From: Cyanidioschyzon merolae
Lineage: Eukaryota
NCBI GenBank assembly: GCA_000091205.1
Contig: AP006499.2
Strand: one strand, 5' to 3'
DNA: 64,000 nt
In this document: one piece after another, positions 1-31,033 of the stretch
Layout of the letters: each line of letters opens with the position of its first letter
Numbering within the stretch: the first letter of the stretch is position 1
Translations under genes and position numbers: made by a program
Notes under the pieces: model-generated
What the model was told of the DNA's origin: nothing
Seen by the model: the letters and a program-made list of their open reading frames with translations, nothing else
Database searches by the model: none

Positions 1-3000
1 GATGGACAGCGTTCCTGGTTGTACCTCCGTGACCGCAAAGAACAGCGCCGAGGAGCGCAGCTCATACAAGTGATGAACTCCCGGTACCAGCGTTTCGATG
101 AAAAGCTGCATGCTGGGCATCGGTTGCCACGCCAGATTCGGCACAGTGAATGAAACGTCGTTCGTTGAGACGCGAAGCTCCGGCGCATGGCACGCACATC
201 GAATCTCGATGCACTCCTCGAAGTCTCGCACCAGGCGACAACTCACATAGAGATGGAACGTCCGCGTCACTACACTGCCGCAGAGCTGATCAGTCTCCGT
301 CGATTCCGGTTCGGGTCGCAAGTACAGAAATACTCGGCGAGAGGAGGCTTTTTCAACCCAGACGCTGGTGACCTTGCGCAGCGCCAGATTGCTGGTGCTG
401 AAGTGCAATTCGCTCCGAGATTGCGGATCCAGATCGTGGCGCAAGAGGAACTCCAGCGGCTGATCGCTCAAGTTTCGAATGCGTATCGACTTGTTTCGAT
501 AGACGTGGTGCAACATGACGGCACCATAGTCGATCTCTCGTGGACTGGTCTCGAAGATCGTCGACGCATCAGCTCGCTCGGCGACGACTTCCATGCGAAC
601 GCGCAAGAGCGCCAAGTTCGCTGGCGATTGGCGATCCGTGAATAACAAATACTCCTGGAAGAACCCCAAAGACTCCGGTTTCATGGTCAAGCAAATCGTC
701 TGGCTGGGTCGTGTCCGTTCGAGAATACCACCCATGCGATCGAGCGCGAACCATTCGGTCGATTCCGGACGCGCACGCCGCCAGTGCGTCGGGACGCGAT
801 GAATCTTGTACTCGAGAACGTGCTCAGCAGTTGATGCGCTCGCCTCGCTCTCAGACTCGGGATCTACCGATGTGGATACAGGCATGCATCGTTGCAGCGG
901 ACGCTGCACGATGATGATTGTCCGTTGAATCGCTTGGCTCCCGAGTGGTACAACACCAGCGTCGAGTTCGTAGAGGTGCTCACCAATGTCAGCACAGCCG
1001 TGGAGACCGAATGTGCGCGGGCCCCGCTGTGGTGCTGTTTCGTCTGCGTCCACGCAGGTGGTGGTGGTGGCGGCGGCGGCTGCGGCGAAGACGTCGCCAT
1101 GGGTCTCCGAATCATCGATCGCGGCCATTGGCTGCTCTGGTGCTGATAACGTATCCTTCGGATGCAAGCCGGGAGCAGTTGCAGCGTCGGAGGCCTCAGC
1201 GCTAAACGAAGCGCTGACCGGCTCTTGCTCGACACCGGCTTGCGCTGCTGCGCCAGTCGTGCACGAACTCGTCGCCAAAGTCGCAGCAGTCATGTCAGAC
1301 TGCGGACTCGTCGCCAATGGCAGGCGCTCGGGGTGCCCCACGCGAGGCGCCGCAGCTTGTCGCTCACCGACGACAACCGGTTCCAGTGCCGCGGCGTCCG
1401 TGCGGGATTCGTGCGGCTCCTCTGCCGCCGCCAGTGGCACCGGTGACTGCTGCACACGATCATCGCGCGTTTGCAAGTCGTCCCGATTGGACGCTTCTCG
1501 TGCCTCGGATTGTGACGAGGCTCGCGTGTCGCTCATCATCATCATCATCATCATCGACGTTGTCGGTGGCGGTGGCGGTGCATCGGAAGTATCCGCGGGC
1601 ACCATGACCTGTTGCATCGGCAGTGACCGCTTTCCTTGGTACACCGGGATGCGCTCCAGAGGGCCCGCCTCGGCGTCCTGTTTTCGTCGCAGAGCTAACT
1701 CAATCCAGGCGATCGGCTCCGAGTCGATGCCCAGATCCAGGCTTGGTGCTGCCGCAGCGGCCTCCGCGCCTCCGACCGAACAGCCCGCAACACGTTCATG
1801 CTCGGTTTCTTTGGGCGTCGCCACTACCGCCAGTTCGAACTTTTCACCACTGGCGAGCGTTAGCGAACGTAACGTCGCTGAACTGGCACGATCTTGGAGC
1901 ACAAGGTCTCGATAGGGCCCGGTAGGTACCACGCTTGTCTGCCAAGTGACCTGAACATCACCACGAGCAGCCTCGGGAATGCTGATCGCCAACGTGCCGT
2001 GGCCTTGCTCATTGAGCAGTACCGGACTCGATTCCTGTATCAAGCGAACGGAGAACTGACCAACAATGCGGAGTTCCAGGTGCTCTTGCGGTTGCCAGAC
2101 GTTCTCAATTGTCACCAGGAGCTCAAATGGACCAGCTCCCAGCGATAGCGCCGCTGGCCGCACCACGAGTGGTACCCAGACTTGCTCACCGGGCTCAAGT
2201 TGGCCTTCAAGGGCGCTCGCATCCGCTTCATGTAGCAACGACATGCGCGTCTGAGTCGGTACCAGTTGCGAGGTTGCAGCGGTCGCCGACGTCGATGCGG
2301 AGGCGCCCCTGCGATCCACGTCTGCCGAAGCGGCTTCGTGCGGGGGCACGCCCATACGCGTTCCGCTTGCGTATGCATCTCGAAGATCTTGCGCTACTGG
2401 TGGCGTCATGACGTCGGCACTGGCGCTGGGCGGCACGAGTGTCTCAGATTCGGCATCGGGATGAGGCGAGCTCCAAGTCGCCTGCGGCCGCCACGACGCC
2501 TCTAGCGAGGCTGCATGCCACGCATCAGGTGCGTCTTTGGAGACGTTGCCCCTAGTGCCATCAAAACGATGCTCAATGGCACTGGGCTCGAGGTGCGGCG
2601 TCTCCAGGGCCGGCCTCTGTTGCTCGTTTGGAACAGGGCTGGCTCCCGGGGGTCCCGCTTCGACCCCTGGCGGCAGTACCGAGAACGGCAAACGCCAACG
2701 TGCAGCGACTGCGCCCACGTTCCGAAGTAGAGCGTGCACCACCACGGGAGCGTTGCGCTGCGCGTACCCGATGGTGCCAATGTCGATCGTCGGGGTCACC
2801 AGGGCCATGCGCGCACAGCCGTATCGCAACGATACCGGAACGCTATCGAGATAGCGTCCGGCGAGCTGGGCCACAAGCAAGGCGCGTCGTTCGACGAGCG
2901 AGCCCTCGCGAAGCAGATCCCGTTCGCGTTCGTGGAGCAGCGACGGCACCAGCTGGTAGCGAAGCACCTCGGCCGGAACCGCTTCCCAGAACACGCCGTT

Positions 3001-6000
3001 GAGTCTCGGCTCTGTCAGATTCGGTAGCATCCGCGCTTCTTCTTCTTCTTCTTCTGCTGCTGCTGTTGCTGATGATGATGACAGCGGCGGCGAGTCCGAG
3101 CCACACGCAACATGCGGCCAGGGCCAGTGTTCAGGAAAGCCATCTACATACAGGCGAAATGAGACGCCTTGGGGTGTTGCTATGGTTGTTATTGCTGCTG
3201 CTGCTGCTGCTGCTGACGACGACGACGACGACGGCGAATCGTCGTTGATCCAGCGAATGTGCCAGTTGCCGGGACGCACTTGCCCCATCGTATCCGCTCG
3301 AAGCAGACAGGGCTCGTTAAGCTCCAGGTGCAGACGCGAGAGCCGACTATCCTGCTGCACTGCCGGCACCCGATGCACAAATACCAACTGCAAGTCGTAA
3401 GATCGACGCGAGTACGCCAGGTTCTCGAGGCGCACCCGTTGCTCGAGGAGCGCTGCTCGCCTGCAGTTACGCCACTCGAAGGTCAGCACATCTTGAGACT
3501 GGGGAGCGATGGTGATTTGCTGCTGAGCAAATACCAGAGATGGTTGTTGCTCGCAATCTTCGTCCTCGGGGGCGTCATCAGGCACGGCAGGATCAGGGCG
3601 TCGCTCATCAACAGTGACCTCCGAGCCAAGTTCCGAGCGCCCGAGATCGTCACCGGCAAAGGCGTGGAGCACGGAACGCTCTTCATATCGAAGTTGCAAT
3701 CTGAGCGATAATCCATTGCTGAGATTACGAATTTGTAGTCGGCCTCGAGCACCAAAGCGGAACCAGGCAGTCTGGAACAGATGCGATAGGCCCGGACGCC
3801 GTTCCCCCGATCCAGTGACTCCATCTGCGATACCGGAACTAATACTTTGCTTCCCGTTGAGGTCCACAAGTGCTTGCAGCGTTGCAGTCGGCCACAGTGC
3901 AAGCAACTCGGGCGCCGGTCTAATCGGGTGTCGTTGTCGCAGTCCACGCCGCTGCTCTGCTGTGAACGCATGAGTATCCTGCACGTAATGAATCGTCGCG
4001 ATCGCGTTCTCCTCTGTTGAGAACGCTTGCGTATCCTGCACATCATCAGTGGATTCCATCACACTGTCTGCAACTCGACCGCGTACACCTCTGTCGGCCT
4101 CTGTGACTGCAATCGGGCCCGTTACCCCGAGCACCAGCACCAGTGATCGCAAACACACTGGGTAGACGAATCCCGCCCGGGCCTTCAGTTTCACCGTAGC
4201 GATATCCACGAGCGCAGCTTGCGCACATCCAGCATCCAGGGACGCTTCGCTCTGGACTGGATCAGGGCGCCAGGCTCTCAGCAGGAGCCCCGCAACGAGC
4301 TCCCGAACAACCCCTGCATATAACTCAAGAATCGGAATGCGTGGTGCGAGACCCACGTGCACGGTAACCGTCGCGCCCGGTGCAACGCGGACTGCTCGCG
4401 GGAACGGTGTCTGCCGCATCGCGTCTGTGAAAAGCAGGATCTGTTTCGCCAGGTTGCTCCGAACCTGTAACATTAACGGTTCATCGCTTCTCGAGACAAT
4501 CGTGAGGCTCCGCACCGCACACACACCACCCTGCTCGGGGTCGAGAGCGAGATCACCCCAATCCCACACGAGTACGGTCGAAGAGGCTCGTAGCGGCTCC
4601 GATGAAGGCGCCGCTTCCCTCTGAACACCAATCGATGATAGCTCGACGGCACTGGATTCCAACTGAGGCAGGTACAGCGCCCGACGAGGCAGCACATGAC
4701 CCTGTACCCGAACACGCACCGTCTCAACTGGTGCAGTCGAGGCTGGCGAGGTGCCAACCCAGCCACCACCACCACCACCACCACTACCACCACTGTTCCC
4801 GCCGGAGCGTCCAGTGGCGTGCACGAGGCGACTCGCCGGAGCGCCCACCAAAGCCTCGGTCGCTGGTTGAAGCCAGGCGGTTACCACCAGCGTTCTCGAT
4901 AGTGTACCCATGCGGTCGGGGCGAAAACTGAGGCGCACCTGGGCAACACCGTGCACGTCGACGGTACCGCGCATGGGACTCCAGAGCAGCGTGGCAGGAA
5001 GCGCCACCTGCGTATCCTCCAGCACCGAGAACGCAACCTTTCGATCAGAAACGTTCTGGATCGTCAGGCGGCTGGTCACCGTCTGACCGAGCGACACTTT
5101 GCCAAACGCGATCACCAGCGGTGATATCTGAATGAGTCGCGAGCTCCCTGTGCGCTCCACGCGTCTTGCGGTACTGGGCAGAACCGGTACCGTTTCCGCA
5201 AATGCAGGCCAACGTCCGGCGCTATCTGGTGACCCATTCCAGTCACTGGACACGGTGTCGTTGCATGCGCTCTCGTGCGCGGAGCTTCTCGTCGCCATCA
5301 CGTCTTGTTCAGGGACGACGTTTGACGGAGCGTCGTCGCTCGTTGCCGTCGGTGGTACCGCAGGGTCCGAATCCCAGACCTCCATTGAACAGCAGATACA
5401 TTGCTGCTCATCCCGATTACGTTGTTCAAACACACGCAGAGATACTTGTCGACGACCTCGTACGCCTGCAACCGACGTCAGCGACACAGCCAGACGAGCG
5501 ACTTGACCAGGAGCAAGCGTAACGACCAAGCGCCCGGCATGAAGCGCGGTTGCTGCCCTGCGTGAAGCAGTAGGTGCCGCTCGAGGTCGCATCCCCGAGA
5601 CACACGTCGATGCCTCGCGGACATTCTCCGGTGGCATCGAATGCGCTTCTGGAGCGTCCAGCTCGGTGACCGACTCACCTTGCGTCAGCGTTCTTGTCGA
5701 TGAGTCCGCATCCTGCAACTGATGCGTTCGCTGCTGTGCGATTGCTGCACGGAGGCGCTCCACTTTTTCCGTCCGGCCCTTTCTTTCGGCGATACGGAGT
5801 TTCTGTTCCAGTGCCTCGATCGCTGCGTTGGTATCAAGGGACGTCTGCATCGATCCGGGTATAGCACCAGCACCAGCGAATAGCGCTTGTTCCTGCTCAT
5901 GCGCCTGCGGCAGCATGGAAGCAGCAACAGATTCGGCTAGTGCCGCTTCGGCGACGCGTCCTCCACAGGCGCTGCGTTCGTTATCCGGGGTCTCGTGCGC

Positions 6001-9000
6001 TCGCGATTCCCCGTCGTACACTGACGAGTGAACCACAGACTCGGAAGGCGTTGCTGTTTCGGTTGCTTCCGTTCCTGGTCCGGGCAAGAACGCCGGCCGA
6101 GACTCACCAGGCTGCACGCGAATCGACATCGAGGACTCGAGAGCGTCCACCGCAAGCCACACCGTGGCTGTCGTCCGTTGATCAGCAGCGTCCTGCTCGA
6201 TCACGAAGACACGCCGACGATCCGAGCAGTTCTGGAGCTGAAAGGAACGCCGTATGCCAGCACCGGGCGCTACTGCACACGATACGCTCCCAAAGTCGAG
6301 CTGCAGCGGTCGCACGACAAAATGGGTACGGCGGTGTACGAGTGCCTTCATGGTTACCGGATGGGCATCGCTGGGATCCAGCAGATTGACAATCCAGACA
6401 CACTCCTCGAAGGCACCATGAAACGAAGGCCGAAATACGAAAGGAACTTCCTTGGCACTGAACGGCCGCAGAACTCCGCGCCGATCAGACCCAAAGTGCA
6501 AATAACTGCTATCCACAGAACCAGACTTGCGTACAGCGTAGAAAGCCGGCATCTCCGATACGTTCTGCAGAAGCAGCGTCTTAGATCGTTGCTCACCTGC
6601 GACGATACCCCCAAAGTTGATATGCGGCTGGGCAACTTCCATTCGAGAGATGCAAACCCGACCTCGCAGCACCAGCTCCCGTGGCGGCAAAGACGACGCA
6701 TGCAGCCGTGTCGGTGTCAGCGGGAGACGACTTTGATCATAGTCCACGAGGTGCAGATAGAGGCGCTCCTCAAAAGGACGCAGTTTGGTGCGCAGTCGGC
6801 GGTCGGCGGCGTCGAACTGGATAACCACATAGAGGGTTGCCTCGGCGTTGGGCTCGATCTCCAGCTGCTGCTGTTGTATCCGTCGGAGCAGGCCTGCATC
6901 ACACGCCTGGACCAGCGCTTGTGCGGGACGCAGCGACTCGCGAATAAAGTCTGCTTCTGCTTCGGCAGTCGAAAAGAAGGATGGAATGGCGGGCGGCATC
7001 CGCATCAGCTGCGCGAAAATGTCAGCGGCACGTAGACTCACTGGTGAGGTTTCGTTTCTACCCAGTTCGTTTGAGTCTGAGGTCTCCGACAGCGTCTCCT
7101 CATCTGAATCACTGGAAGCCTGTGATCGACGACGCCGAACTGTCTGCCGCAAACGGACGCTATGTCGATACCGACGACGATGATGACGAGACGGCTGCAG
7201 AAGCTGACTCGCGCCCGTTCGCGAGGCATCACTGGAGTGCTCACCCGCCGACGCATTTCGTACTGGTGTGCAGAGGCGCGTTCCGGTTGTCGTCGAATCA
7301 GCGGCTGCCGCTGTACCTGGAAGAGCCATCGCTTCCTCAGTGTGCTCAGTAGACTGTGTTTCGACGCCCGTGTTACGCCACTGGGTCCGTGCTCGAGAAG
7401 CAGGTGCCGCTGCTTCCGTCGCTTCCGTAGCCGTGCATGCCTCGTTGCCAGACGTGCGAGCCGAGCACTGCAGCTGCACACCGTCCGCTACGACATGCGC
7501 TGCAGGGGCAGGTGCCGCTGCCTCTGCATCCGCCAAGGCAGCGTGCGGTAGACAAGCTTCCGTTGGTAACGTCGCTGGTTGGCGTTGCTGTTCCGAAGCG
7601 TCCTTTTCGGAGATTGACGGGTGCGGTTGAGCGCGCTCGAACCGGGGATCCGCGAGCAGCTCCACATGCGGCCGTGCCGGGCAGGTAAAACCCAGGACAA
7701 GGCGCTTGTCGGTCAGGTTCCGCACCTGAAAAGCGCGAATGTACGCGTGACCAGCCACCACGTTCCCGTAATCAAGCTCATTCACCTGGGTGGAACGCTC
7801 GGTAGCAAGTCGGTAGAAGAGCGCGTGGTAGAGCACGCGAAAGCGGTCGACACAGTTCGCGCGTATCACCACGACATGTTCATCGCGAGGATTCCGCAAA
7901 TTCAGTATCGTCAACTGTTTGCTATAGTCTGGATTCACACGATGCGGTGTAAAGTCGATCCGGAGATCATAGATCTGGCGAGGGCCAATGATAGGCTCAA
8001 GCGATGCCACCCGGAGCGACGTCGAGGAGAAGCGCACCGAGAGAAAGGCTGGGAGGTCGGCAAGGTTCACCACCTGCACAGACGTGGTCACTGTGGATTC
8101 CACGTAACAGTCGCCCAGGTGAATTTCCGTCGGATGCACCCGCACGAGTGACTCACTGACTCGCGCTCGTCCGTAGAGTATTTTGCGCTGGGCGAGTACC
8201 TCTCCGTCGTCGAGAGCGTCGCGTCCCGAAAGCGAACGAAAAGGCACAACCTCTTCACCAGAAGTTGCCGACGACGTGTTTGCGGCTGGCATCCAGGCAG
8301 CTGCACCAGCGGGTACGGTGCTGGGCGCGCAGGCGCTCCCGTCCAAGAGGTCGGACCTGAGCTCAGCGCCATTACCCTGCTGGTGCTGTTGTTGTTCGTA
8401 CATGGTGCGTTCGCTGGCGCTTAGCGCGTGCAGCGACGCCCGTTCTGGAGCGCTCTGGAGGCCGGCATCTGGCGCGGATACCGCACTGTCGATTAGCGGC
8501 TCTTGCTGCTCGTCCCCGAGCGGAAAGCGACTCGCTGCAACTCGCGAGGCAGCGCTCCCAGTGCTCGTTCCGCAGACGCGATCGGATCCCAGCAAGCCGG
8601 TGTCATCGGTGTACCCCGCTGGTCCAGGGAAGACATGCTCGAGCACCTCGCTCGGTGAACCAGGAGTTGTCGCTTCTGATTCCATCGCAACTCGCTGCGC
8701 TCTGGTACGCTCTGGTACCTCGGACGTCCTGAGCATTACCCAGAACACCAGAGGGAAGCGCCTCTCCACAAAGCGTCCATCTACTGCGGCGATCACTGCC
8801 TGCGAGCGCAAAGGTGGTTGATAAACAATCCGAATGGGACGTGCCTCCTTTGCTGGGACCTCGACCGGTGCAACAGGTACAATGGACCAGCGGGCGGCTA
8901 GCTCTTGGTCCATGGATATCAGAATTGTAGCGTCAGTTGCACAGTTCTGCACAACAAGGTCGCGCGCAACTGTCGAGCCAGCGTACACGTCACCAAAGTC

Positions 9001-10083
9001 GAGTTCATCGATCGCCACACTCGCCGGTTGTTCAGCTAGGCGAAAAACGGCCAGCGTGGCCGGTTTCTGGATACCGCACAGGCAATGGATGGAGAGTAGC
9101 GCTTGATTCTCCGGATTTCTCCAGTTGAGGCACCGTACTGTATACTGGAAACGCCCGCATTCCGTAGCTTCCAAGGCAAAGCGCAATCGTCGGTACTGCA
9201 GACCGCCAATTCGGTGAGGTCCCGGCCCCAGAGGCACGCCACTCTCCAGGTCGGTGCACGTTAGACTGCCGCTCTTGGGTTGAATTTGTAAACTGAACTG
9301 GGTAGCCAGCTCACTTTGGTTCCAGAGAAGCACATCCTTGGCGGTCGTTGTTTGCGATACGGGCACCTCGAGCAGTAGCGTCTTCTCGACGCTGGGGCCT
9401 GACTCTATGCCTTGGGTCGCTTTCGCGTTGACGGGTGTAGCGGCATGCCGCAGGTCGCCACTAGACTGGTCCATGCGTCCACTGTTGTTGTCGGTAGGCG
9501 TTCGCGGACTCGCAGCGCCTGTTGCTCGCTCCTCCCCGCCGGTATCCCGTTGCAGCGGTGCGGTCGCGTCGGGCCGGCTGTCCAGCGTGAAGGTGAGCAA
9601 AGAACGAATAACACGGCCGTTCACAGGTAACGAGCAGAGCAACGTTCCGTCTGGTACAGATGTGAGGTTGATCAGGCCGTGTACGCGTTGGAAGCTGAAG
9701 CCAGCTTGCCGAACTAGTTCAGGTTTGACCTGTACGATTACGGGCAAAGGTTCCGTCTCTGCGGTTTTCGGAACTTGGAACGTTTCAGTCAAGTTCAGCT
9801 CGTGAAAGAGAGCGTTTTGCTGGGCATAGGGGACGTCCCAGTTGGCGTTCTCGCGCTGGAAACAGATGAACGGAGCTAGCGGGCCTTCTACGCTGATGCG
9901 CACCACCAGTGGCTCTGTCGGACTTGCTGCTCGTGTTCGCTGTAAGTGCACGAGAAAGAGCGTCGGTATTTCCGCGGTGAGCTCTCCGAGTTCCAGTACA
10001 CGCTCCCTGAAGACCACTGGAACGTCGGGAGGTCGCTCTTGAGCCGATTCGCCAGCGGTTTTTGTAGCGCTTGCCATGAGCAT
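1..10083 (-). CDS. Giant flagellar/ciliary ASH(MSP-fold)-repeat protein, Hydin-like; 5' (N-terminal) end at 10083, C-terminal end truncated by window edge (>3360 codons in window)
   Basis: Manual minus-strand translation in one frame (codons ending at coordinates divisible by 3) is open from 10083 to 6772 and again from 6720 to position 1 with no stop. Repeated ASH/MSP-type motifs are present: LDFGDVYAGSTVARDLVVQNCA (~8940-9005), INFGGIVAGEQRSKTLLLQNVSEMPAF (~6540-6625), LDFGSVSCAVAPGAGIRRSF (~6200-6290), IAFGKVSLGQTVTSRLTIQNVSD (~5030-5110). Low-complexity linkers (poly-S/G/M/E). The ATG is at 10081-10083 with an upstream in-frame TGA at ~10150-10152. The gene is absent from the supplied ORF track. 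Confidence 0.6.
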   Translation of the reverse strand, partial: MLMASATKTAGESAQERPPDVPVVFRERVLELGELTAEIPTLFLVHLQRTRAASPTEPLVVRISVEGPLAPFICFQRENANWDVPYAQQNALFHELNLTETFQVPKTAETEPLPVIVQVKPELVRQAGFSFQRVHGLINLTSVPDGTLLCSLPVNGRVIRSLLTFTLDSRPDATAPLQRDTGGEERATGAASPRTPTDNNSGRMDQSSGDLRHAATPVNAKATQGIESGPSVEKTLLLEVPVSQTTTAKDVLLWNQSELATQFSLQIQPKSGSLTCTDLESGVPLGPGPHRIGGLQYRRLRFALEATECGRFQYTVRCLNWRNPENQALLSIHCLCGIQKPATLAVFRLAEQPASVAIDELDFGDVYAGSTVARDLVVQNCATDATILISMDQELAARWSIVPVAPVEVPAKEARPIRIVYQPPLRSQAVIAAVDGRFVERRFPLVFWVMLRTSEVPERTRAQRVAMESEATTPGSPSEVLEHVFPGPAGYTDDTGLLGSDRVCGTSTGSAASRVAASRFPLGDEQQEPLIDSAVSAPDAGLQSAPERASLHALSASERTMYEQQQHQQGNGAELRSDLLDGSACAPSTVPAGAAAWMPAANTSSATSGEEVVPFRSLSGRDALDDGEVLAQRKILYGRARVSESLVRVHPTEIHLGDCYVESTVTTSVQVVNLADLPAFLSVRFSSTSLRVASLEPIIGPRQIYDLRIDFTPHRVNPDYSKQLTILNLRNPRDEHVVVIRANCVDRFRVLYHALFYRLATERSTQVNELDYGNVVAGHAYIRAFQVRNLTDKRLVLGFTCPARPHVELLADPRFERAQPHPSISEKDASEQQRQPATLPTEACLPHAALADAEAAAPAPAAHVVADGVQLQCSARTSGNEACTATEATEAAAPASRARTQWRNTGVETQSTEHTEEAMALPGTAAAADSTTTGTRLCTPVRNASAGEHSSDASRTGASQLLQPSRHHRRRYRHSVRLRQTVRRRRSQASSDSDEETLSETSDSNELGRNETSPVSLRAADIFAQLMRMPPAIPSFFSTAEAEADFIRESLRPAQALVQACDAGLLRRIQQQQLEIEPNAEATLYVVIQFDAADRRLRTKLRPFEERLYLHLVDYDQSRLPLTPTRLHASSLPPRELVLRGRVCISRMEVAQPHINFGGIVAGEQRSKTLLLQNVSEMPAFYAVRKSGSVDSSYLHFGSDRRGVLRPFSAKEVPFVFRPSFHGAFEECVWIVNLLDPSDAHPVTMKALVHRRTHFVVRPLQLDFGSVSCAVAPGAGIRRSFQLQNCSDRRRVFVIEQDAADQRTTATVWLAVDALESSMSIRVQPGESRPAFLPGPGTEATETATPSESVVHSSVYDGESRAHETPDNERSACGGRVAEAALAESVAASMLPQAHEQEQALFAGAGAIPGSMQTSLDTNAAIEALEQKLRIAERKGRTEKVERLRAAIAQQRTHQLQDADSSTRTLTQGESVTELDAPEAHSMPPENVREASTCVSGMRPRAAPTASRRAATALHAGRLVVTLAPGQVARLAVSLTSVAGVRGRRQVSLRVFEQRNRDEQQCICCSMEVWDSDPAVPPTATSDDAPSNVVPEQDVMATRSSAHESACNDTVSSDWNGSPDSAGRWPAFAETVPVLPSTARRVERTGSSRLIQISPLVIAFGKVSLGQTVTSRLTIQNVSDRKVAFSVLEDTQVALPATLLWSPMRGTVDVHGVAQVRLSFRPDRMGTLSRTLVVTAWLQPATEALVGAPASRLVHATGRSGGNSGGSGGGGGGGWVGTSPASTAPVETVRVRVQGHVLPRRALYLPQLESSAVELSSIGVQREAAPSSEPLRASSTVLVWDWGDLALDPEQGGVCAVRSLTIVSRSDEPLMLQVRSNLAKQILLFTDAMRQTPFPRAVRVAPGATVTVHVGLAPRIPILELYAGVVRELVAGLLLRAWRPDPVQSEASLDAGCAQAALVDIATVKLKARAGFVYPVCLRSLVLVLGVTGPIAVTEADRGVRGRVADSVMESTDDVQDTQAFSTEENAIATIHYVQDTHAFTAEQRRGLRQRHPIRPAPELLALWPTATLQALVDLNGKQSISSGIADGVTGSGERRPGLSHLFQTAWFRFGARGRLQIRNLSNGLSLRLQLRYEERSVLHAFAGDDLGRSELGSEVTVDERRPDPAVPDDAPEDEDCEQQPSLVFAQQQITIAPQSQDVLTFEWRNCRRAALLEQRVRLENLAYSRRSYDLQLVFVHRVPAVQQDSRLSRLHLELNEPCLLRADTMGQVRPGNWHIRWINDDSPSSSSSSAAAAAAAITTIATPQGVSFRLYVDGFPEHWPWPHVACGSDSPPLSSSSATAAAEEEEEEARMLPNLTEPRLNGVFWEAVPAEVLRYQLVPSLLHERERDLLREGSLVERRALLVAQLAGRYLDSVPVSLRYGCARMALVTPTIDIGTIGYAQRNAPVVVHALLRNVGAVAARWRLPFSVLPPGVEAGPPGASPVPNEQQRPALETPHLEPSAIEHRFDGTRGNVSKDAPDAWHAASLEASWRPQATWSSPHPDAESETLVPPSASADVMTPPVAQDLRDAYASGTRMGVPPHEAASADVDRRGASASTSATAATSQLVPTQTRMSLLHEADASALEGQLEPGEQVWVPLVVRPAALSLGAGPFELLVTIENVWQPQEHLELRIVGQFSVRLIQESSPVLLNEQGHGTLAISIPEAARGDVQVTWQTSVVPTGPYRDLVLQDRASSATLRSLTLASGEKFELAVVATPKETEHERVAGCSVGGAEAAAAAPSLDLGIDSEPIAWIELALRRKQDAEAGPLERIPVYQGKRSLPMQQVMVPADTSDAPPPPPTTSMMMMMMMSDTRASSQSEAREASNRDDLQTRDDRVQQSPVPLAAAEEPHESRTDAAALEPVVVGERQAAAPRVGHPERLPLATSPQSDMTAATLATSSCTTGAAAQAGVEQEPVSASFSAEASDAATAPGLHPKDTLSAPEQPMAAIDDSETHGDVFAAAAAATTTTCVDADETAPQRGPRTFGLHGCADIGEHLYELDAGVVPLGSQAIQRTIIIVQRPLQRCMPVSTSVDPESESEASASTAEHVLEYKIHRVPTHWRRARPESTEWFALDRMGGILERTRPSQTICLTMKPESLGFFQEYLLFTDRQSPANLALLRVRMEVVAERADASTIFETSPREIDYGAVMLHHVYRNKSIRIRNLSDQPLEFLLRHDLDPQSRSELHFSTSNLALRKVTSVWVEKASSRRVFLYLRPEPESTETDQLCGSVVTRTFHLYVSCRLVRDFEECIEIRCACHAPELRVSTNDVSFTVPNLAWQPMPSMQLFIETLVPGVHHLYELRSSALFFAVTEVQPGTLSI
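3195..3240. repeat. (GCT)8(GAC)7 compound microsatellite inside the Hydin-like CDS (encodes poly-S/poly-A linker)
   Basis: gctgctgctgctgctgctgctgacgacgacgacgacgacg. Confidence 0.9.
6722..6781 (-). other. Pair of compensating +1/-1 frame changes inside the Hydin-like ORF (at T4 and C4 homopolymers), likely assembly indels or a real lesion
   Basis: The main frame hits TGA at 6769-6771 and 6736-6738. The +1 frame reads protein-like RPFEERLYLHLVDYDQSRLP across exactly this 60-bp stretch, then the original frame resumes at 6720. No GT..AG intron of compatible length is present. Confidence 0.5.
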
Positions 10084-11078
10084 CAGGATTTTTGTCGATA
10101 CGCTGTCGTTGTACCAAGTCGTAGCGTCCACGACGCCTCGGGTAACTGCTCAACGGTCTGAGTGCGAAACGCAGCGACTTTTGCGCGCAAGGCGCTGCCA
10201 AAGAACCCAGTGCGAAGGTCGGGTTCGCCTTACGTAACCAATTAGCACGCTCACAACAGCGGTTCACAGTAAAACGCGTTCCGAAATAGAGTCCTCCGCG
10301 TTTCACGACTCGTCTGCGTTGGATGATGCGCTCAGTAGACGCTTGTTTACGAACTGCGTCTCATCATTGAGGTTACACGTTGGACAAGGAAAAGGTCGTC
10401 AGCGCGACGAAGTCAATGACCTCCTCAAAGTCTACCGGGTGTCTTGTTCTCTGGTGGACGCAAGTACGTCACACAACTTGACCAGTAAAGTACTGACCCT
10501 GGTACCGGTACCCGCGTCCAACGAACAGCGTAGTTGTTGTCGTCGTTGCCGCATTCGTACACAGCGGGCAGCGATCATCGACTGCAGATCGCGTCGCTTC
10601 GTGGCGAAGCCAGATGCCAAACGCTTGAAAAGCGGGCATTGTGTTTGCGTTTCAAGTGCCGATCTTGACAGTCTGGTGTCACTTGGGGAGCGTGGACTCG
10701 CTCGACTGTGCTCGATACAACAGCTGAACGCAGGAACCCTGCTGCCTGTGGAGACTGTGTGTGCGTCCACCACGAAACAGTCGGAGGCGTCCACTGCACC
10801 CGGGGGCACACCTGGAGCTCCCGGTGAATCGCTTCGTTCTTCTCGTTGCCAACGGTTTTACCGGTGATCTGGTTTCTACTGGGGCGTTCAGCGTAGTTTT
10901 CTGTAGAGCGTCGTGCTTCTCGGTGGTGCCTGGTGACGATTGCAGCGAGCTCGCGCCGGGGACGTTCCATAGTCTCTGGAGCGCACTGAGCGCCGCAGCC
11001 GACACGCTCCAGACCTGCTCCGGCAGTCCCGCAAAGATAACGTGCGACTTGTCGCCTTAAAATTTTCTCTGTGGCAAT

Positions 11079-12494
11079 ATGGTGCTACGATTCAAAGGAT
11101 TGCACCGCGGAGCAGCCCGGGTACCCGTGTTTCGATTTGCGCAGCTGGCGACTGGCTGCCGCTCTCCGCGGCCACCGCAGTGCCTGTCCAGCGCTGCTGG
11201 ACTTGCTGGGCTGCACCAGCGCTGCTTTCATACGACCGTCCTGTCGAGACAGCGCGGCACTCCGTTGCACCACGTGAGGCAGACTTTTCGCAACACCCCT
11301 GGGATGATGCATCCGCGGTGCCGCGCTCCGAGCGACAATACATACAGGCAGCGAGCCGCTTTCGCCACGCTATTCGAAACTCCGAAAAGACTTGTGCACG
11401 GGGATGTCAGCGCTACCCCAACACCCACGATAGCACCAGGGTCGATTCGTCTAGCGAGCGATCTCGAAAGGGATTCGAAGGTTCTTGTCTATAGATCACT
11501 GCATCGTTTCGAGCCGTCCTGTTTTGCTTCGGTATCCAGGGCGCTCTTGGATGCACCCTTTAGACCGGACGTTATCCACCGGGTGGTGCTCTACCAACGG
11601 GCCGCACAACGTCGAGGGACAGCGCATACCAAGACAAGAGCAGAAGTGTCCGGGTCTGGTCGAAAACCTTGGGCACAGAAAGGCACCGGAAGGGCCCGCG
11701 CGGGAAGTCTCCGTGCACCTCAGTTTCGGGGCGGAGGTGTTGCGCACGGCCCACGCGCTGATCGCATATGGGCTCAGAGACTACCCAAGAAGGTTCGCTG
11801 GCTCGGTTTGGCCTCTGCGCTTACACGACGTTTTCAAGAGGGACGTCTCTGGGTCCTGGAACGTTGGTGCAACGGGTCACCGCAAGAACATGCACCCACA
11901 AACATATGTCTGGATGTTTCGGATTCATCCGATACGCGTTCGAACGCGTCCACGGCTGCCGCTGACTCGACGGAGGATGCGCTAGCGGGGACTTCAACAA
12001 CGAGACATCTGCAGCCTTCGGTAGCTTTGGTACATGCCGACCAGCTGGAACTCTTTCTGCGTGAGAGAGGATGGCGCTCACTGCTCATCATTGGTGCTAG
12101 TCTCCGAGATCGCTCTTCCGTCGATGACGCAGACAACGCTCAAAGCGTCAATATCACAAATAGATCAATCAGCTTTGCGGATCTAGACCCTGGTACTGCT
12201 GAGGGTCTCTGGGACCTCTGCGGGCGACTGGGTCGCGATAGCCTCTCAGAATGGCACCAACTTGAACGAGCAGCGAGAAACCTGGATGCGAATGTTCTGT
12301 TGCGCACGTCACTATCCGTGGGCGTGTACGACCTTGTGCGTTACCCGCACATCCTCATCACCGTGAATGCCTTGCGCGAACTGGAGTTGCGAATACGGGG
12401 TCAGTCTCGAGTGCTTGTCCAGGCAATGCGACTGGGCTCCCTGCGGTACGCGCTTCAACCGAGTTTGCGACAGGGATCGGTTGGAAAACCTTAG
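11079..12494 (+). CDS. Mitochondrial ribosomal protein uL4 (bacterial-type L4) with long N-terminal presequence/extension
   Basis: uL4 signature GSGRKPWAQKGTGRARAGSLRAPQFRGGGVAHGPR. The ATG at 11079 is confirmed in sequence. The N-terminus is basic and Arg/Ser-rich, consistent with mitochondrial targeting. Confidence 0.75.
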   Translation: MVLRFKGLHRGAARVPVFRFAQLATGCRSPRPPQCLSSAAGLAGLHQRCFHTTVLSRQRGTPLHHVRQTFRNTPGMMHPRCRAPSDNTYRQRAAFATLFETPKRLVHGDVSATPTPTIAPGSIRLASDLERDSKVLVYRSLHRFEPSCFASVSRALLDAPFRPDVIHRVVLYQRAAQRRGTAHTKTRAEVSGSGRKPWAQKGTGRARAGSLRAPQFRGGGVAHGPRADRIWAQRLPKKVRWLGLASALTRRFQEGRLWVLERWCNGSPQEHAPTNICLDVSDSSDTRSNASTAAADSTEDALAGTSTTRHLQPSVALVHADQLELFLRERGWRSLLIIGASLRDRSSVDDADNAQSVNITNRSISFADLDPGTAEGLWDLCGRLGRDSLSEWHQLERAARNLDANVLLRTSLSVGVYDLVRYPHILITVNALRELELRIRGQSRVLVQAMRLGSLRYALQPSLRQGSVGKP

Positions 12495-15692: not shown

Positions 15693-15693
15693 C
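15661..15693. repeat. (GAC)11 microsatellite at 3' end of LRR gene
   Basis: gacgacgacgacgacgacgacgacgacgac read directly. Confidence 0.9.
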
Positions 15694-22189: not shown

Positions 22190-22520
22190 ACGATGATTGT
22201 ACAAGCGAATCGCCCTCTTTAGAGCCCCTAAAGGTGGACGCTGTACAGATCGTCCTCTCCAGCGCACATGAAGGCTGCCGCTGTACAGATCGCCCTCTTC
22301 AGAGCCCCTAAAGGTGGACGCTGTACAGATCGTCCTCTCCAGCGCACATGAAGGCTGCCGCTGTACAGATCGCCCTCTTCAGAGCCCCTAAAGGTGGACG
22401 CTGTACAGATCGTCCTCTCCAGCGCACATGAAGGCTGCCGCTGTATAGATCGTCCTCTTCAGAGCCCCTAAAGGTGGACGCTGTACAGATCGTCCTCTCC
22501 AGCGCACATGAAGGCGGACA
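22190..22520. repeat. 80-bp tandem minisatellite x4 (each unit made of two ~40-bp sub-repeats)
   Basis: 'agcgcacatgaaggc' recurs at 22261, 22341, 22421 and 22501; 'ctgtacagatcg(t/c)cctct' sub-repeat. It lies ~130 bp upstream of the Pol X ATG. Confidence 0.85.
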
Positions 22521-22647
22521 TCGACGCGCATGCACCGAGGCGATCTCTCGCCAAATATCTCTGAGGGAAAACGAGAGGGCTCTCTACTGTACCTCAGGTG
22601 CGCGTGCCGCTACCAAGTCCGATTGAGTGGAGAAAGGCTCACTTGGA

Positions 22648-29120: not shown

Positions 29121-29879
29121 ATGGTGGTGAAAACCTTTCTTCTTGGACATACCAAGGATCCCTGCAGGGAAAAGTTGCGAGACGCTGTCGAAAAACGTGT
29201 CGACTCTTACTTCAGGAATATTGTGAAGGCGTCGTCAGGACTGATGCATTTGGCGAGGGAGATGTATCGCGACGTGACGCACATGGAAACGGTCAAGATT
29301 CCGGACAAGTTCTTCGACAAGACCTTTATTCGACACCTCATGCTTGGTACAGAGGAAGCGCGGAGGGAAAATGAGCGGGTGCACGTCCTCCACGGAAAAC
29401 ACTCCTTTTACAGCTTTAATGGTACTCGATACAAGGGTGACCGGGATATGTACGACTATGGGGCGATGAAGTACCTCACGAACCTGAAGAACCATCTGAT
29501 CGTGAACCTCGAACGTTTCATGATACGCGCCGTAGTTGCACTCTACCCGGACCTGTCTCGCCAAGGAATATGGGCGATTATCAATGGCATCACGAAAGAT
29601 CGCAGGCGTGAAGACGAGGTCGAATTTGTCGAGAAGAAGGAGTCAAACGAGAGCACGAATGAGGATTCTGTAATCCGTGCGGCTATGAAAGAGCATCGTG
29701 CGGTACTGGGGTTGGCGAATTCAGCAGAAAAGATATCAGCGTTGAAAAAAGATGAGGGAAGATCCTATCGCCTCATTCTGGGATATTTTGTGTTCCTGGA
29801 CCGAGAACTGGGACGCGAGGCAGAGATGAAACTGGGTGAGGAAAAAATGAAGCGTGGGAGAGACGGAAGGCTTTCCTAA
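29121..29879 (+). CDS. Fanzor/TnpB-like protein, N-terminal segment (copy A)
   Basis: 252-aa ORF (ATG confirmed), 96 % identical to copy-B ORF 53486-54244. It lies upstream of and co-oriented with the RuvC segments. Confidence 0.45.
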   Translation: MVVKTFLLGHTKDPCREKLRDAVEKRVDSYFRNIVKASSGLMHLAREMYRDVTHMETVKIPDKFFDKTFIRHLMLGTEEARRENERVHVLHGKHSFYSFNGTRYKGDRDMYDYGAMKYLTNLKNHLIVNLERFMIRAVVALYPDLSRQGIWAIINGITKDRRREDEVEFVEKKESNESTNEDSVIRAAMKEHRAVLGLANSAEKISALKKDEGRSYRLILGYFVFLDRELGREAEMKLGEEKMKRGRDGRLS

Positions 29880-30091
29880 TGGGGAAGCGCTTCAACGGCG
29901 TTCCAATGTGCAACATCAGTTCACATTTTGTGACTATCGACTCCAGAATCCTTTACGGCATCATGTAGGAGATCAGTCCGGAGTTCAGTGTCAGCAGGGA
30001 GGAGTTCTCCGCTGAGAAGCGGGAGACGCACTGGAAGAACATCTTCAATTTCAAACTTCTCAAAGTCAGCAAACAAAAGGTATTCACTGGA

Positions 30092-30658
30092 ATGATCGAA
30101 ACCGATGGAGTAGCCACGTGTGTACACTATCGGCGCTTGAAGGCAGATCGTCCAGTTCTGTGTTCAATATTGTCCGTAACGAAGCATGAAGATGAGAAGG
30201 AGGCGTATCCTGCGACGCAGAAAGTGCAGAATAACGACTTTGTCGTTGGCGCGGACCCCGGAACCACAAATATCGCAACCATCGCAGCACCCAAGCGTGC
30301 GGAAGATGGTACTGACGGCAACCTACGTCGGAAAGACGTGCGTCTTTTGAGGCTCTCGAGAGCAAGATACTATCGAGAATCGGGAATCATGAATGCAAGG
30401 AAGAAAATTGAGGCATGGAATGCAGGAATGAAAGAGCACCTGGAAGCCTTGAGTGAGATGACGAGCCGCGGAGCGGACTTTGAAGCTTTTCGGAAATTCA
30501 TGGAAGTTCGTGTTGCTCATTGGGATGCGCTGTGGGAAGAGTATACAAATCCCCGGTGCGCTCGTCTGCGAATGAATCTGTATTGTGGGAAGCGGCGCGC
30601 GTTCGCGAATTTTTTAATGAGTGCCTTGAAGGAGAATGAAAGTCAGGGCTCGTGGTAG
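30092..30658 (+). CDS. Fanzor/TnpB-like protein, RuvC-I segment (copy A)
   Basis: ...[19 protein letters not shown]... matches the TnpB RuvC-I catalytic Asp motif (cf. IGIDLGxxxxA). 188 aa, 96 % identical to copy-B ORF 52707-53273. Confidence 0.6.
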
Positions 30659-31033
30659 CGTACGGAGCAGGGCGCCGGAGGATACAAAAAGGGTGTACAC
30701 CAGCTCCAACGGCAAGAACGTACATGGAGTGTGCACGGCGTTTTGTTACAATACCTGTAGATGAGTTTCGAACATCGTATACACACCATGAGCTGGGTTG
30801 TACACTTCAGAGAGTGGAGATGGAAAAGTGCCACCGGAGCCCTGAAGATATAAAAAAGTATGGACGGCTGACGGAAGAGCAAATGGAAAGGACGTCGAAA
30901 GTTCGTGGACTCCTTGCATTAGTAAGTACAACCAATGATGGAAAGAAGCGTATGGAGTTTGTGAATCGTGACTTTGATGCCGCTATCAATATCAGGAAAT
31001 GTGCGGTGATGGAGCATAGACCTCCAGAGTGGA
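30640..31033 (+). CDS. Fanzor/TnpB-like protein, zinc-finger-like plus RuvC-III segment (copy A), in -1 frame relative to the preceding segment
   Basis: ...VTIPVDEFRTSYTHHELGC...CHRS...MEFVNRDFDAAINIRKCAVME matches the TnpB C-terminal pattern (V..V.E.YTS.xC ... DRDxNAAxNI). The frame opens at 30640 and overlaps the end of the RuvC-I ORF by ~16 nt. The homologous copy-B ORF stops ~13 codons after NAAINI; copy A lacks that stop and reads through to 31395, which is artefactual. Confidence 0.55.

What the first reader, a model, noticed from the sequence alone, without database searches (positions are those of the whole stretch)
1..10083. >10-kb uninterrupted minus-strand ORF (Hydin-like) missing from the supplied ORF track
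Manual translation shows one reading frame open across the first 10 kb of the window and continuing past position 1, with recurrent ASH/MSP-domain motifs (L/I-[DN]-F-G-x-V...L-x-[LI]-x-N-x-S) typical of Hydin and CFAP central-apparatus proteins. The track lists only short antisense or off-frame ORFs here, such as 986-1915+ and 6028-7035+. These are GC-driven artefacts. Its presence implies a flagellated organism and sets the codon-usage frame of reference (strong GC3) for the locus.
Basis: seen in the sequence. Interest (0 to 1): 0.5.

Follow-up and report, generated by a model that had tools for sequence, protein, structure and literature searches.

The report
Giant non-ciliary ASH-domain protein gene
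The 10-kb open reading frame is real and is the already annotated gene CMQ420C of the red alga Cyanidioschyzon merolae; it is built from the same bead-like domains as the flagellar protein Hydin, but it is not Hydin, because it belongs to an unstudied family of giant proteins also found in organisms with no flagella.

Summary
The minus strand is open for 3383 codons (1-10149), against 65-103 stops in each of the other five frames. The first ATG is at 10083, and the frame runs off the window at position 1.

The window is Cyanidioschyzon merolae 10D. The ORF is residues 1-3361 of the annotated 3626-aa 'hypothetical protein CYME_CMQ420C' (BAM82259.1). Hot-spring metagenome contigs supply the missing 265 residues.

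The ASH/MSP motifs are real. At least 13 ASH-type Ig-like domains are supported by Pfam, by conserved motifs and by an AlphaFold model whose best structural matches are Hydin, CFAP74, CFAP65, DLEC1 and CFAP47.

- The protein is not a Hydin orthologue. It has no ADK domain, has 13-16 rather than 33 ASH domains, and has its own C-terminal domain.
- Its best matches are co-linear 3-4.8 kaa proteins from Dictyostelium, Mortierella, Galdieria and Gracilaria (all without flagella), and from chytrids, Naegleria, oomycetes and others.
- C. merolae lacks flagella and centrosomes, so the gene does not imply a flagellated organism.
- GC3 is 0.61, which is not strong.

Function is unknown. The best inference is a long, chain-like cytosolic scaffold, possibly on spindle microtubules. 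That target is inferred, not shown.

The parts
1..10083 (-). Coding sequence of CYME_CMQ420C, residues 1-3361 of 3626. The last 265 codons and the stop lie beyond window position 1.
   Evidence: No stop in 3383 codons. Identical to residues 1-3361 of BAM82259.1/XP_005538295.1 (P0175). The end of the gene was read in L007 and L008. pN/pS is 0.32-0.45, and the only indels are in-frame ones in homopolymer runs, compared with metagenome strains.
10081..10083 (-). ATG start codon
   Evidence: First ATG of the open frame. It matches the N-terminus of the annotated 3626-aa protein.
9088..9354 (-). ASH-type Ig-like domain (aa 244-332), weak
   Evidence: Self-derived repeat HMM gives i-E 1.4e-4. Invariant N255 and N320 in 12 homologues. 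A conserved block at aa 240-390 aligns in many homologues.
8713..9003 (-). ASH-type Ig-like domain (aa 361-457)
   Evidence: Motif LDFGDV...VVQN. Invariant N380. Weak Pfam ASH hit.
7801..8124 (-). ASH-type Ig-like domain (aa 654-761), in the most conserved block of the family
   Evidence: Pfam HYDIN_VesB_CFA65-like_Ig and Ig-CFAP74_4th. AlphaFold pLDDT is above 90 with a beta-sandwich. Homologues align co-linearly.
7519..7776 (-). ASH-type Ig-like domain (aa 770-855), in tandem with the previous one
   Evidence: Motif LDYGNV...QVRNLTD. N789 conserved in 11 of 12 homologues. Confidently modelled beta-sandwich.
7045..7602 (-). Lineage-specific disordered, low-complexity insert (aa 828-1013)
   Evidence: pLDDT below 50. 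Little or no coverage by homologues outside Cyanidiophyceae. Low-entropy segments.
6898..7044 (-). Two conserved alpha-helices (aa 1014-1062) that precede the next pair of ASH domains
   Evidence: AlphaFold helices H395-407 and H421-443 of the model, pLDDT about 90.
6322..6621 (-). ASH-type Ig-like domain (aa 1155-1254), in the second highly conserved block
   Evidence: Pfam PapD-like, Ig_CFAP65_4th and Cep192_D4. Invariant N1174 and N1233. pLDDT above 90.
5989..6300 (-). ASH-type Ig-like domain (aa 1262-1365)
   Evidence: Motif LDFGSV...QLQNCSD. Invariant N1285. Modelled beta-sandwich.
5728..5820 (-). Short conserved Lys/Arg-rich helix (aa 1422-1452; family consensus LEQKLKIAxRKGK)
   Evidence: Conserved in alignments A2 and A3 and in Mortierella, Creolimax and Albugo homologues.
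4807..5112 (-). Best-scoring ASH domain (aa 1658-1759)
   Evidence: Pfam HYDIN_VesB_CFA65-like_Ig scores 33.7 bits on its own, above the 25.5-bit cutoff. ASH, Cep192_D4, TMEM131_like_N and Motile_Sperm match the same stretch.
4249..4596 (-). Conserved block with the ASH-type N motif (aa 1830-1945)
   Evidence: Invariant N1877. Weak matches in homologues.
3394..3801 (-). Conserved block or blocks with ASH-type N motifs (aa 2095-2230)
   Evidence: Invariant N2120 (RLQIRNLSN) and N2221.
2473..2787 (-). ASH-type Ig-like domain (aa 2433-2537)
   Evidence: Motif IDIGTI...LLRNVG. Invariant N2455.
1924..2226 (-). Conserved beta-rich block (aa 2620-2720)
   Evidence: N2661 conserved in 11 of 12 homologues. 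Order-prone composition.
145..786 (-). C-proximal conserved block (aa 3100-3313), which includes the ASH domain at aa 3184-3281 (nt 241-534)
   Evidence: Co-linear matches in Dictyostelium, chytrid, Mortierella and other homologues. Motif IDYGAV...RIRNLSD.
4741..4818 (-). Gly/Ser homopolymer run (aa 1756-1781), length-polymorphic between strains
   Evidence: In-frame indels against L007 and L008.
1489..1602 (-). Pro-rich stretch and a run of seven Met (aa 2828-2865), length-polymorphic
986..1915 (+). Antisense ORF of 309 aa: a chance ORF, not a gene
   Evidence: No Pfam hit. Its length is within the range of shuffled sequence, where the maximum was 415 codons. It overlaps a CDS that is supported by homology.
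6028..7035 (+). Antisense ORF of 335 aa: a chance ORF, not a gene
   Evidence: Same evidence as the other antisense ORF.
10084..11078 (.). Intergenic spacer of 995 bp between CMQ420C and the divergently transcribed mitochondrial ribosomal protein L4 gene (CMQ421C, 11079-12494 +). It presumably holds both promoters.
   Evidence: Ribosomal_L4 Pfam hit. The gene order CMQ420C then CMQ421C is the same in Cyanidiococcus. The promoter role is inferred.

Best explanation
Positions 1-10083 (minus strand) encode the first 3361 of the 3626 residues of CYME_CMQ420C, an expressed single-exon gene of the red alga Cyanidioschyzon merolae 10D. The product is about 395 kDa. It is cytosolic: it has no signal peptide and no transmembrane segment.

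Its architecture is as follows:
- at least 13 ASH/MSP-type (PapD-like) Ig-like beta-sandwich domains, several of them in tandem pairs;
- fast-evolving, disordered low-complexity linkers between the domains;
- one short conserved Lys-rich helix;
- a conserved C-terminal domain of about 270 aa that matches no known family.

The protein is an orthologue of an uncharacterised pan-eukaryotic family of giant proteins (about 3-4.8 kaa). The family occurs in red algae, Amoebozoa, Fungi, Ichthyosporea, Heterolobosea, stramenopiles and Rhizaria, whether or not the organism builds cilia. It is therefore a relative of Hydin at the level of the domain, not Hydin itself.

Inferred mechanism (not shown): like the chain-like ASH proteins Hydin and CFAP47 on central-pair microtubules, it acts as a long, flexible, multivalent scaffold that lies along or around a large cellular structure through serial ASH domains. 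In C. merolae the most plausible partner is non-axonemal microtubules, that is the spindle or its poles.
For: Shown:
- The frame is open far beyond chance.
- The sequence is identical to BAM82259.1, and the neighbouring genes are identical to C. merolae 10D proteins.
- There is purifying selection against natural strains: pN/pS is 0.32-0.45 and all indels are in-frame.
- The Cyanidiococcus orthologue is transcribed (TPM 11-20) and detected in the proteome of both haploid and diploid cells. It has no signal peptide and 0 TM segments (PMC13353863 supplement).
- All Pfam hits are ASH-type Ig families.
- A HMMER search of 1.84 billion proteins gave 534 hits, 169 of them at E<=1e-30. They align co-linearly over the whole length, including the C-terminus.
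- Named members come from Dictyostelium, Mortierella, Galdieria, Gracilaria and Creolimax, which have no flagella, and from chytrids, Naegleria, Albugo, Spumella and Paulinella.
- The C-terminal domain has no hit in PDB or Pfam.

Inferred: the scaffold role, by analogy with full-length HYDIN and CFAP47 in the central apparatus (PMC12297659).
Against: There is no direct functional, localisation or interaction data for any family member. 'CMQ420C' appears in no full text of the library and in no cell-cycle supplement that I could search. ASH/MSP domains also work in membrane traffic (TRAPP, OCRL, VAP), so the fold does not specify a microtubule partner. There is no enrichment of CDK sites (33 S/T-P sites against 38 expected), and no uniformly basic charge that would argue for lattice binding. 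Expression is the same in haploid and diploid cells, and I have no evidence that it is mitosis-specific. Only about 20 of the 534 family hits could be given an organism name, so the taxonomic range is only partly known. In particular, absence from animals, land plants and Dikarya is not established.
Confidence: 0.6

Rival explanations
1. It is a true Hydin (or other central-apparatus) orthologue, kept as a relic of a flagellated ancestor or marking a hidden flagellated stage.
Against: Those scores add up many single-domain matches to a protein with 33 ASH domains. Whole-protein phmmer against Hydin gives E=0.25. There is no Hydin_ADK domain in this protein or in 11 homologues. The length and the number of domains are wrong for Hydin. 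The C-terminal domain is absent from Hydin chains. Red algae lack flagella and centrosomes (PMC8504449). The family is present in Dictyostelium and Mortierella. Expression and purifying selection argue against a decaying relic.
Confidence: 0.03
2. It is the red-algal counterpart of SPD-2/CEP192: a scaffold of the microtubule-organising centre that recruits gamma-tubulin and mitotic kinases to acentriolar spindle poles.
Against: No single stretch reaches the Cep192 cutoffs (best 22 bits). There is no Cep192_D5 hit. The conserved GDExxR motif 2 of the SPD-2 domain is absent. CEP192 ranks below six central-apparatus proteins by fold and scores only E=5.6e-4 against the family profile. Dictyostelium already has a separate CEP192 (PMC11922060), so this family would be a paralogue at best.
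Confidence: 0.07
3. It is a membrane-traffic or organelle-contact scaffold that uses ASH/MSP domains as protein-protein interaction modules, as in TRAPPC8-11, OCRL, VAP and TMEM131.
Against: There is no TPR/alpha-solenoid region (TRAPP), no phosphatase or RhoGAP domain (OCRL), and no signal peptide or TM segment (TMEM131, VAP). By sequence, the domains are clearly closer to the Hydin/CFAP65/CFAP74 type than to the MSP or OCRL type.
Confidence: 0.15
4. It is a subunit of the recently described CAGE complex, a hollow assembly of about 1 MDa made of beta-sandwich and helical domains that is found in Dictyostelium, Mortierella, oomycetes and others.
For: The taxonomic range overlaps, and CAGE also combines Ig/PapD-like beta-sandwiches with helical domains (bioRxiv 10.1101/2025.09.22.677704).
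Against: CAGE proteins are about 1900-2400 aa, have no Pfam-detectable domain, and most of their homologues are bacterial. CMQ420C is 3626 aa, about 40% disordered linker, and has ASH domains that Pfam detects. The Dictyostelium purpureum family member finds no PDB chain other than weak Hydin matches, although I do not know whether the CAGE structure is in the PDB copy.
Confidence: 0.02
5. It is a spurious open frame or a pseudogene in GC-rich DNA.
For: The DNA is 60% G+C, which favours long chance ORFs. About 40% of the product is low-complexity.
Against: 3383 codons stand against a maximum of 415 in shuffles. There are Pfam domains and 534 homologues, pN/pS is below 0.5, all indels are in-frame, and the orthologue is seen in a proteome.
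Confidence: 0.005

Closest known systems
Hydin (central-pair C2b/bridge protein of motile cilia)
   Same: It is a giant cytosolic chain of ASH/PapD-like Ig domains. It is the best sequence-profile and fold match among solved structures. The domain hallmark (L/I-D-F-G ... N-x-S) is the same.
   Different: Hydin has 33 ASH domains, more than 5000 aa and an adenylate-kinase-like domain, and it occurs with 9+2 cilia (PMC12297659). CMQ420C has about 13-16 ASH domains in 3626 aa, no ADK domain, long disordered linkers and a unique C-terminal domain, and it occurs in organisms without cilia.
CFAP47, CFAP65, CFAP74 and DLEC1 (FAP47, FAP65, FAP74, FAP81)
   Same: They are multi-ASH scaffold proteins. 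The Pfam models Ig_CFAP65_4th and Ig-CFAP74_4th match single domains here. They are among the top fold matches.
   Different: There is no CH domain (CFAP47). Only isolated domains match, with no co-linear architecture. All of these proteins are restricted to the ciliary central apparatus.
SPD-2/CEP192
   Same: It has ASH domains in tandem, it is non-ciliary, and it acts at microtubule-organising centres, including the acentriolar centrosome of Dictyostelium. Cep192_D4 gives a summed Pfam hit.
   Different: There is no SPD-2-domain signature: no GDExxR motif and no Cep192_D5 hit. The profile match is much weaker (E=5.6e-4). The size and the C-terminus differ.
CYME_CMQ420C orthogroup (OG0000574 of PMC13353863) and its unnamed relatives, for example Dictyostelium purpureum XP_003288445, Mortierella alpina KAF9968753, Polychytrium XP_052968446 and Naegleria lovaniensis XP_044551383
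   Same: This is the family the gene belongs to. The conserved blocks are co-linear from aa 240 to the C-terminus, and the C-terminal signature is shared.
   Different: The C. merolae protein is among the most divergent members, at about 20-27% identity over the whole length. It carries lineage-specific low-complexity inserts.

Membership tests
ASH/MSP (PapD-like) Ig-domain superfamily | Significant match to ASH-type Pfam models | tested here: met
   HYDIN_VesB_CFA65-like_Ig scores 64.5 bits for the whole protein and 33.7 bits for one domain (cutoff 25.5). ASH scores 43.9 bits (cutoff 27). PapD-like scores 32.4 bits (cutoff 27).
ASH/MSP (PapD-like) Ig-domain superfamily | Seven-stranded beta-sandwich fold that superposes on solved ASH/MSP domains | tested here: met
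Hydin | About 33 ASH domains in more than 5000 residues (PMC12297659) | tested here: not met
   3626 aa with 13-16 ASH-type domains.
Hydin | Adenylate-kinase-like (Hydin_ADK) domain | tested here: not met
   No such Pfam hit at E<=1 in this protein, or at E<=1e-3 in 11 homologues.
Hydin | Full-length, co-linear similarity to known Hydins | tested here: not met
   phmmer against PDB Hydin gives E=0.25. Profile hits cover only 2-3 single-domain stretches. The C-terminal domain profile finds no Hydin chain at E<=10.
Hydin | Occurrence tied to motile 9+2 cilia with a central pair | tested here: not met
   The host is C. merolae, which lacks flagella and centrosomes (PMC8504449). Orthologues occur in Dictyostelium, Mortierella, Galdieria and Gracilaria.
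SPD-2/CEP192 | SPD-2 domain: two close ASH domains (Cep192_D4 plus D5) with the conserved motif GDExxR (PMC11922060) | tested here: not met
   There is no GDExxR motif and no Cep192_D5 hit. The best single Cep192_D4 stretch scores 22 bits against a cutoff of 35.5.
ASPM/Asp | CH domains and IQ repeats after the N-terminal ASH domain | tested here: not met
   No CH or IQ Pfam hit at E<=1.
CFAP47 | CH domain within an array of about 20 ASH domains; ciliary | tested here: not met
   No CH hit. FAP47 matches the family profile only at E about 1e-6.
TMEM131 / TMEM131L | Signal peptide, luminal PapD-like domains and a transmembrane helix | tested here: not met
   There is no convincing hydrophobic segment in a Kyte-Doolittle scan. 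The Cyanidiococcus orthologue has no signal peptide and 0 TM segments. TMEM131_like_N scores 17.7 bits, below its cutoff of 28.8.
TRAPPC8/9/10/11 | N-terminal TPR/alpha-solenoid followed by C-terminal ASH domains (PMC4094338) | tested here: not met
   No TRAPP or TPR Pfam hit. The N-terminus is beta-rich and bears ASH domains.
CAGE complex (bioRxiv 10.1101/2025.09.22.677704) | A protein of about 1900-2400 aa with no Pfam domain that forms a hollow homotetramer; homologues are mostly bacterial | tested here: inconclusive
   The size and the Pfam content differ. The D. purpureum family member finds no PDB chain other than weak Hydin matches, but I do not know whether the CAGE structure is in that PDB copy. 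No direct alignment was possible.
CMQ420C-like giant ASH proteins (unnamed family) | Co-linear conserved blocks at aa 240-390, 625-810, 1030-1300, 1410-1500 and 3100-3313, plus the C-terminal signature KYVEEHxxIYNR / LYFDFHYxTDELV / WxGQLxHFLSFFP | tested here: met
   phmmer block maps. Full-length alignment of 12 members from 7 or more eukaryotic lineages. C-terminal alignment A4.

The most novel reading that the evidence does not exclude
CMQ420C represents an ancient paralogue of the Hydin-type ASH-chain proteins, dating to the last eukaryotic common ancestor, that works outside cilia. On this reading it is a still-unrecognised, widely conserved structural component of the spindle, the spindle pole or another non-axonemal microtubule array. 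It has been kept even in a 4,775-gene alga that lost flagella, centrioles, dynein and myosin. The 'ciliary' ASH chains would then be one specialised branch of a more general toolkit for wrapping microtubules.
Probability: 0.2. Interest if true: 0.75.

Novelty: new variant of a known kind. Interest (0 to 1): 0.45.

Why it matters
The gene itself is ordinary in one sense: it is already annotated as hypothetical protein CMQ420C, and UniProt already flags an ASH domain.

What is not in the literature I could search is the following:
- It belongs to a large, co-linear, pan-eukaryotic family of 3-4.8 kaa proteins.
- The domains of that family are closest to those of the ciliary central-apparatus proteins.
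- The family nevertheless persists in at least three independent lineages without cilia: red algae, dictyostelids and Mucoromycota.

ASH domains are usually read as markers of cilia, centrosomes or the Golgi. This family shows that a 'Hydin-like' hit cannot be used to infer flagella. It also points to a conserved giant protein of unknown function in a genetically tractable minimal eukaryote, where tagging and knockout are feasible. If it proves to be a spindle or pole scaffold, it would bear on how acentriolar mitosis is organised and on the origin of the central-apparatus proteins.

Tried and rejected
- My first guess at the organism was a trypanosomatid, from the GC-rich, intron-free giant ORF. 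I rejected this because the genes alternate between strands. Exact protein look-ups then gave C. merolae 10D.
- The search for homologous proteins was of little use. The whole protein timed out. Two clean segments gave no hit at all, not even to the protein itself. The alignment query returned only one true family member. The word index evidently serves these giant proteins poorly. The exhaustive representative search was what revealed the family.
- Single-sequence AlphaFold2 of aa 3012-3361 failed (pLDDT 30).
- The afdb50 fold library was not available, so I could not get named AlphaFold-database orthologues.
- phmmer of three family members (Creolimax, Polychytrium, D. purpureum) against the PDB found no solved orthologue.
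- I considered the CAGE complex because of its overlapping taxonomic range. I set it aside on size, domain content and the lack of any PDB match.
- I looked for cell-cycle or diel expression of CMQ420C. It is absent from the supplements held for PMC6606799 and PMC11376382, and none are held for PMC2646357.
- Charge, pI and S/T-P counts gave no functional signal.
- The C-terminal domain profile found nothing in PDB or Pfam.
Full report

Yes. Translating the reverse complement of window 1-10149 gives 3383 codons without a stop. The other five frames of the same stretch hold 65-103 stops each. In 200 shuffles the longest open run averaged 220 codons, with a maximum of 415.

The ORF is missing from the ORF listing for a mechanical reason. 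The ORF listing does not report ORFs that run off an end of the source (tool description).

The claim of strong GC3 is not right. G+C by codon position is 0.68, 0.51 and 0.61.

**2. Which organism and which gene?**

The neighbouring ORFs are intron-free and lie on both strands. They encode a mitochondrial-type ribosomal protein L4, poly(A) polymerase, a pol-beta-like polymerase, a kinesin, an EF-hand NDH2, an FMN-dependent dehydrogenase and others.

Exact look-ups show that the poly(A) polymerase and the kinesin are identical to BAM82262.1 and BAM82265.1 of Cyanidioschyzon merolae strain 10D, on a record of 1,232,258 bp. Identical or near-identical copies occur in JGI, ENA and Logan metagenome or read-set assemblies.

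The giant ORF is CYME_CMQ420C. Its accessions are BAM82259.1 and XP_005538295.1, and its UniProt entry is M1VAS7, named 'ASH domain-containing protein'. It is 3626 aa long. The window encodes its residues 1-3361 exactly, and the annotated start is the ATG at 10083.

The missing 265 C-terminal residues and the stop codon were read in two metagenome contigs (L007, L008) that are about 99.4% identical in DNA. Compared with those natural strains, pN/pS is 0.32-0.45. All length differences are in-frame changes in homopolymer runs of G/S, S/A, M and A/T.

In the sister genus Cyanidiococcus, the orthologue is BHE85571.1. It sits next to the same L4 gene. It is transcribed at TPM 11-20 and was detected in the proteome of both haploid and diploid cells. 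It has no signal peptide and no transmembrane segment. The orthogroup is not differentially expressed between ploidy phases in three genera (PMC13353863 supplements).

So this is a real, expressed, annotated gene, and nobody appears to have studied it. 'CMQ420C' occurs in no full text of the library.

**3. What is the protein made of?**

Pfam finds only ASH-type Ig-like families: HYDIN_VesB_CFA65-like_Ig, Cep192_D4, Ig_CFAP65_4th, ASH, Ig-CFAP74_4th and PapD-like. Scanned in fragments, one domain (aa 1658-1759) passes its cutoff on its own, and four others are recognisable below threshold.

A repeat HMM adds aa 244-332. The hallmark Asn of strand B is conserved in 10-12 of 12 distant homologues at 13 positions, and a second conserved Asn marks six of those domains. 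I therefore count at least 13, and probably 13-16, ASH-type domains.

About 40% of the chain is low-complexity linker. There is no convincing hydrophobic segment. The protein has a mass of 395 kDa and a pI of 5.8.

An AlphaFold2 model of aa 620-1333, built with a 38-row alignment, has 362 residues at pLDDT of 90 or more and pTM 0.63. It shows two pairs of beta-sandwiches, a disordered insert (aa 828-1013) and two helices.

- Foldseek against the PDB ranks a chain of the Chlamydomonas C2 central-pair structure (7som_D), mouse CFAP74, Hydin, CFAP65 and DLEC1 first, at E about 1e-18 to 1e-21. The CEP192 SPD-2 domain follows, then alpha-2-macroglobulins.
- Next come OCRL ASH, CEP192 and VAP MSP domains.

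Sequence profiles agree. The profile of eight internal repeats hits Hydin at 8e-34, FAP65 at 3e-27 and FAP74 at 2e-17.

At the level of the domain, 'Hydin-like ASH/MSP' is therefore correct.

**4. Is it Hydin?**

No.
- Whole-protein phmmer against the PDB gives Hydin only E=0.25.
- The high profile scores add up many single-domain matches to a target that has 33 ASH domains (PMC12297659).
- There is no Hydin_ADK domain, CH domain or IQ repeat in this protein or in 11 homologues.
- C. merolae, like other red algae, lacks flagella and centrosomes (PMC8504449).

An exhaustive HMMER search of 1.84 billion representative proteins with aa 604-1803 found 534 proteins at E<=1e-3 and 169 at E<=1e-30. 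Most of the best 150 are 2-4.8 kaa long.

Their matches to CMQ420C are co-linear over the whole protein. The blocks at aa 240-390, 625-810, 1030-1300, 1410-1500, 3100-3313, 3354-3450 and 3505-3600 map to proportional positions. A 12-member full-length alignment shows conservation right to the C-terminus.

Named members are:
- Galdieria phlegrea, Gracilaria domingensis, Dictyostelium purpureum, Mortierella alpina and Creolimax fragrantissima, which have no flagella;
- four chytrids, Naegleria lovaniensis, Albugo candida, Spumella vulgaris and Paulinella micropora.

All of them are annotated as hypothetical or uncharacterised.

The last 270 aa or so form a family-specific domain with the signatures KYVEEHxxIYNR, LYFDFHYxTDELV and WxGQLxHFLSFFP. 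It finds nothing in the PDB at E<=10 and nothing in Pfam. Three family members used as PDB queries find no solved orthologue.

The gene therefore belongs to a separate, ancient and uncharacterised family whose occurrence does not track cilia. It cannot be used to infer a flagellated organism.

**5. Other families considered**

- **CEP192/SPD-2.** The summed Cep192_D4 score passes its cutoff, but no single stretch does. There is no Cep192_D5 hit and no GDExxR motif. The family profile reaches CEP192 only at 5.6e-4. Dictyostelium has its own CEP192 (PMC11922060).
- **ASPM, CFAP47, TRAPPC8-11, OCRL and TMEM131.** Each lacks its defining partner domain here.
- **The CAGE complex.** It shares part of the taxonomic range, but its proteins are about 2.2 kaa, have no Pfam-detectable domain and are mostly bacterial in distribution. 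No similarity could be shown.

**6. How does it probably work?**

Shown:
- It is a very long, soluble polypeptide of serial ASH beta-sandwiches.
- Several of the domains form rigid tandem pairs.
- The domains are joined by rapidly evolving disordered linkers.
- It has one conserved basic helix and one conserved C-terminal domain.
- It is under purifying selection and is made in vegetative cells of both ploidy phases.

Inferred: the only long ASH chains whose mode of action is known are HYDIN and CFAP47. They lie as extended chains on and between microtubules and act as multivalent structural ties (PMC12297659). By analogy, the most likely role here is a chain-like scaffold on a large cellular structure. 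In C. merolae the obvious candidate is the spindle or its poles. I put about 0.3 on that specific target.

A membrane-traffic or contact-site scaffold, like TRAPP, OCRL or VAP, is the main rival. Nothing in charge, CDK-site density or the available expression data discriminates between the two.

**7. Novelty and score**

The ORF itself is already annotated.

The useful result is that a family of giant proteins with Hydin-type domains exists across eukaryotes independently of cilia and has no described member. That makes it a new variant of a known kind, the multi-ASH scaffold proteins. It is of moderate interest, and it is directly testable in a tractable minimal alga.

The main caveat is coverage. 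Only about 20 of the 534 hits could be named, and the literature search covers open-access text only.

Noticed in passing
window 29242-31208 (+) and 52157-54123 (-); also L007 12298-13350 and L008 12313-13366: An inverted duplication of about 2 kb (95% identical) lies inside the window. Each copy carries ORFs of 252 aa and 188 aa with no Pfam hit, and shows marked GC/AT skew. A third copy, about 81% identical, lies just downstream of the CMQ420C stop codon, outside the window. This is a dispersed repeat or a small gene family in a genome said to have very few repeats.
   Followed up: partly
window about 22209-22519: Offset self-matches at steps of 40 bases indicate a tandem repeat with a period of about 40 bp. 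It lies just upstream of the pol-beta-like ORF (22627-24795 +).
   Followed up: no
L001 (Ga0506615_00046) 4762-5686 against window 21751 onward: This metagenome contig is co-linear with the window up to 21751 and then carries a SecA gene in place of the window sequence. It is either a strain rearrangement or a chimeric assembly.
   Followed up: no
window 15693-18656 (-): A 987-aa ORF between the L4 and poly(A) polymerase genes has no Pfam hit at E<=1e-3. The same 987-aa product is called on metagenome contigs (L001, L002). It is another uncharacterised C. merolae protein.
   Followed up: no
window 22627-24795 (+): A pol-beta/lambda-like polymerase of 722 aa has its palm (aa 348-428) and thumb (aa 599-707) separated by about 170 residues, and the thumb match is stretched over 109 residues for a 63-position model. 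This suggests large inserts.
   Followed up: no
window 39100-40932 (-): A type II NADH dehydrogenase carries an internal EF-hand pair, which suggests a calcium-regulated external NDH2.
   Followed up: no
whole protein; The word-indexed protein search did not return the query's own cluster (representative P0021, 3636 aa) for two clean segments of the protein. The exhaustive search did find it. Giant proteins seem to be poorly reachable through that index, so 'no hits' there should not be read as orphan status.
   Followed up: partly
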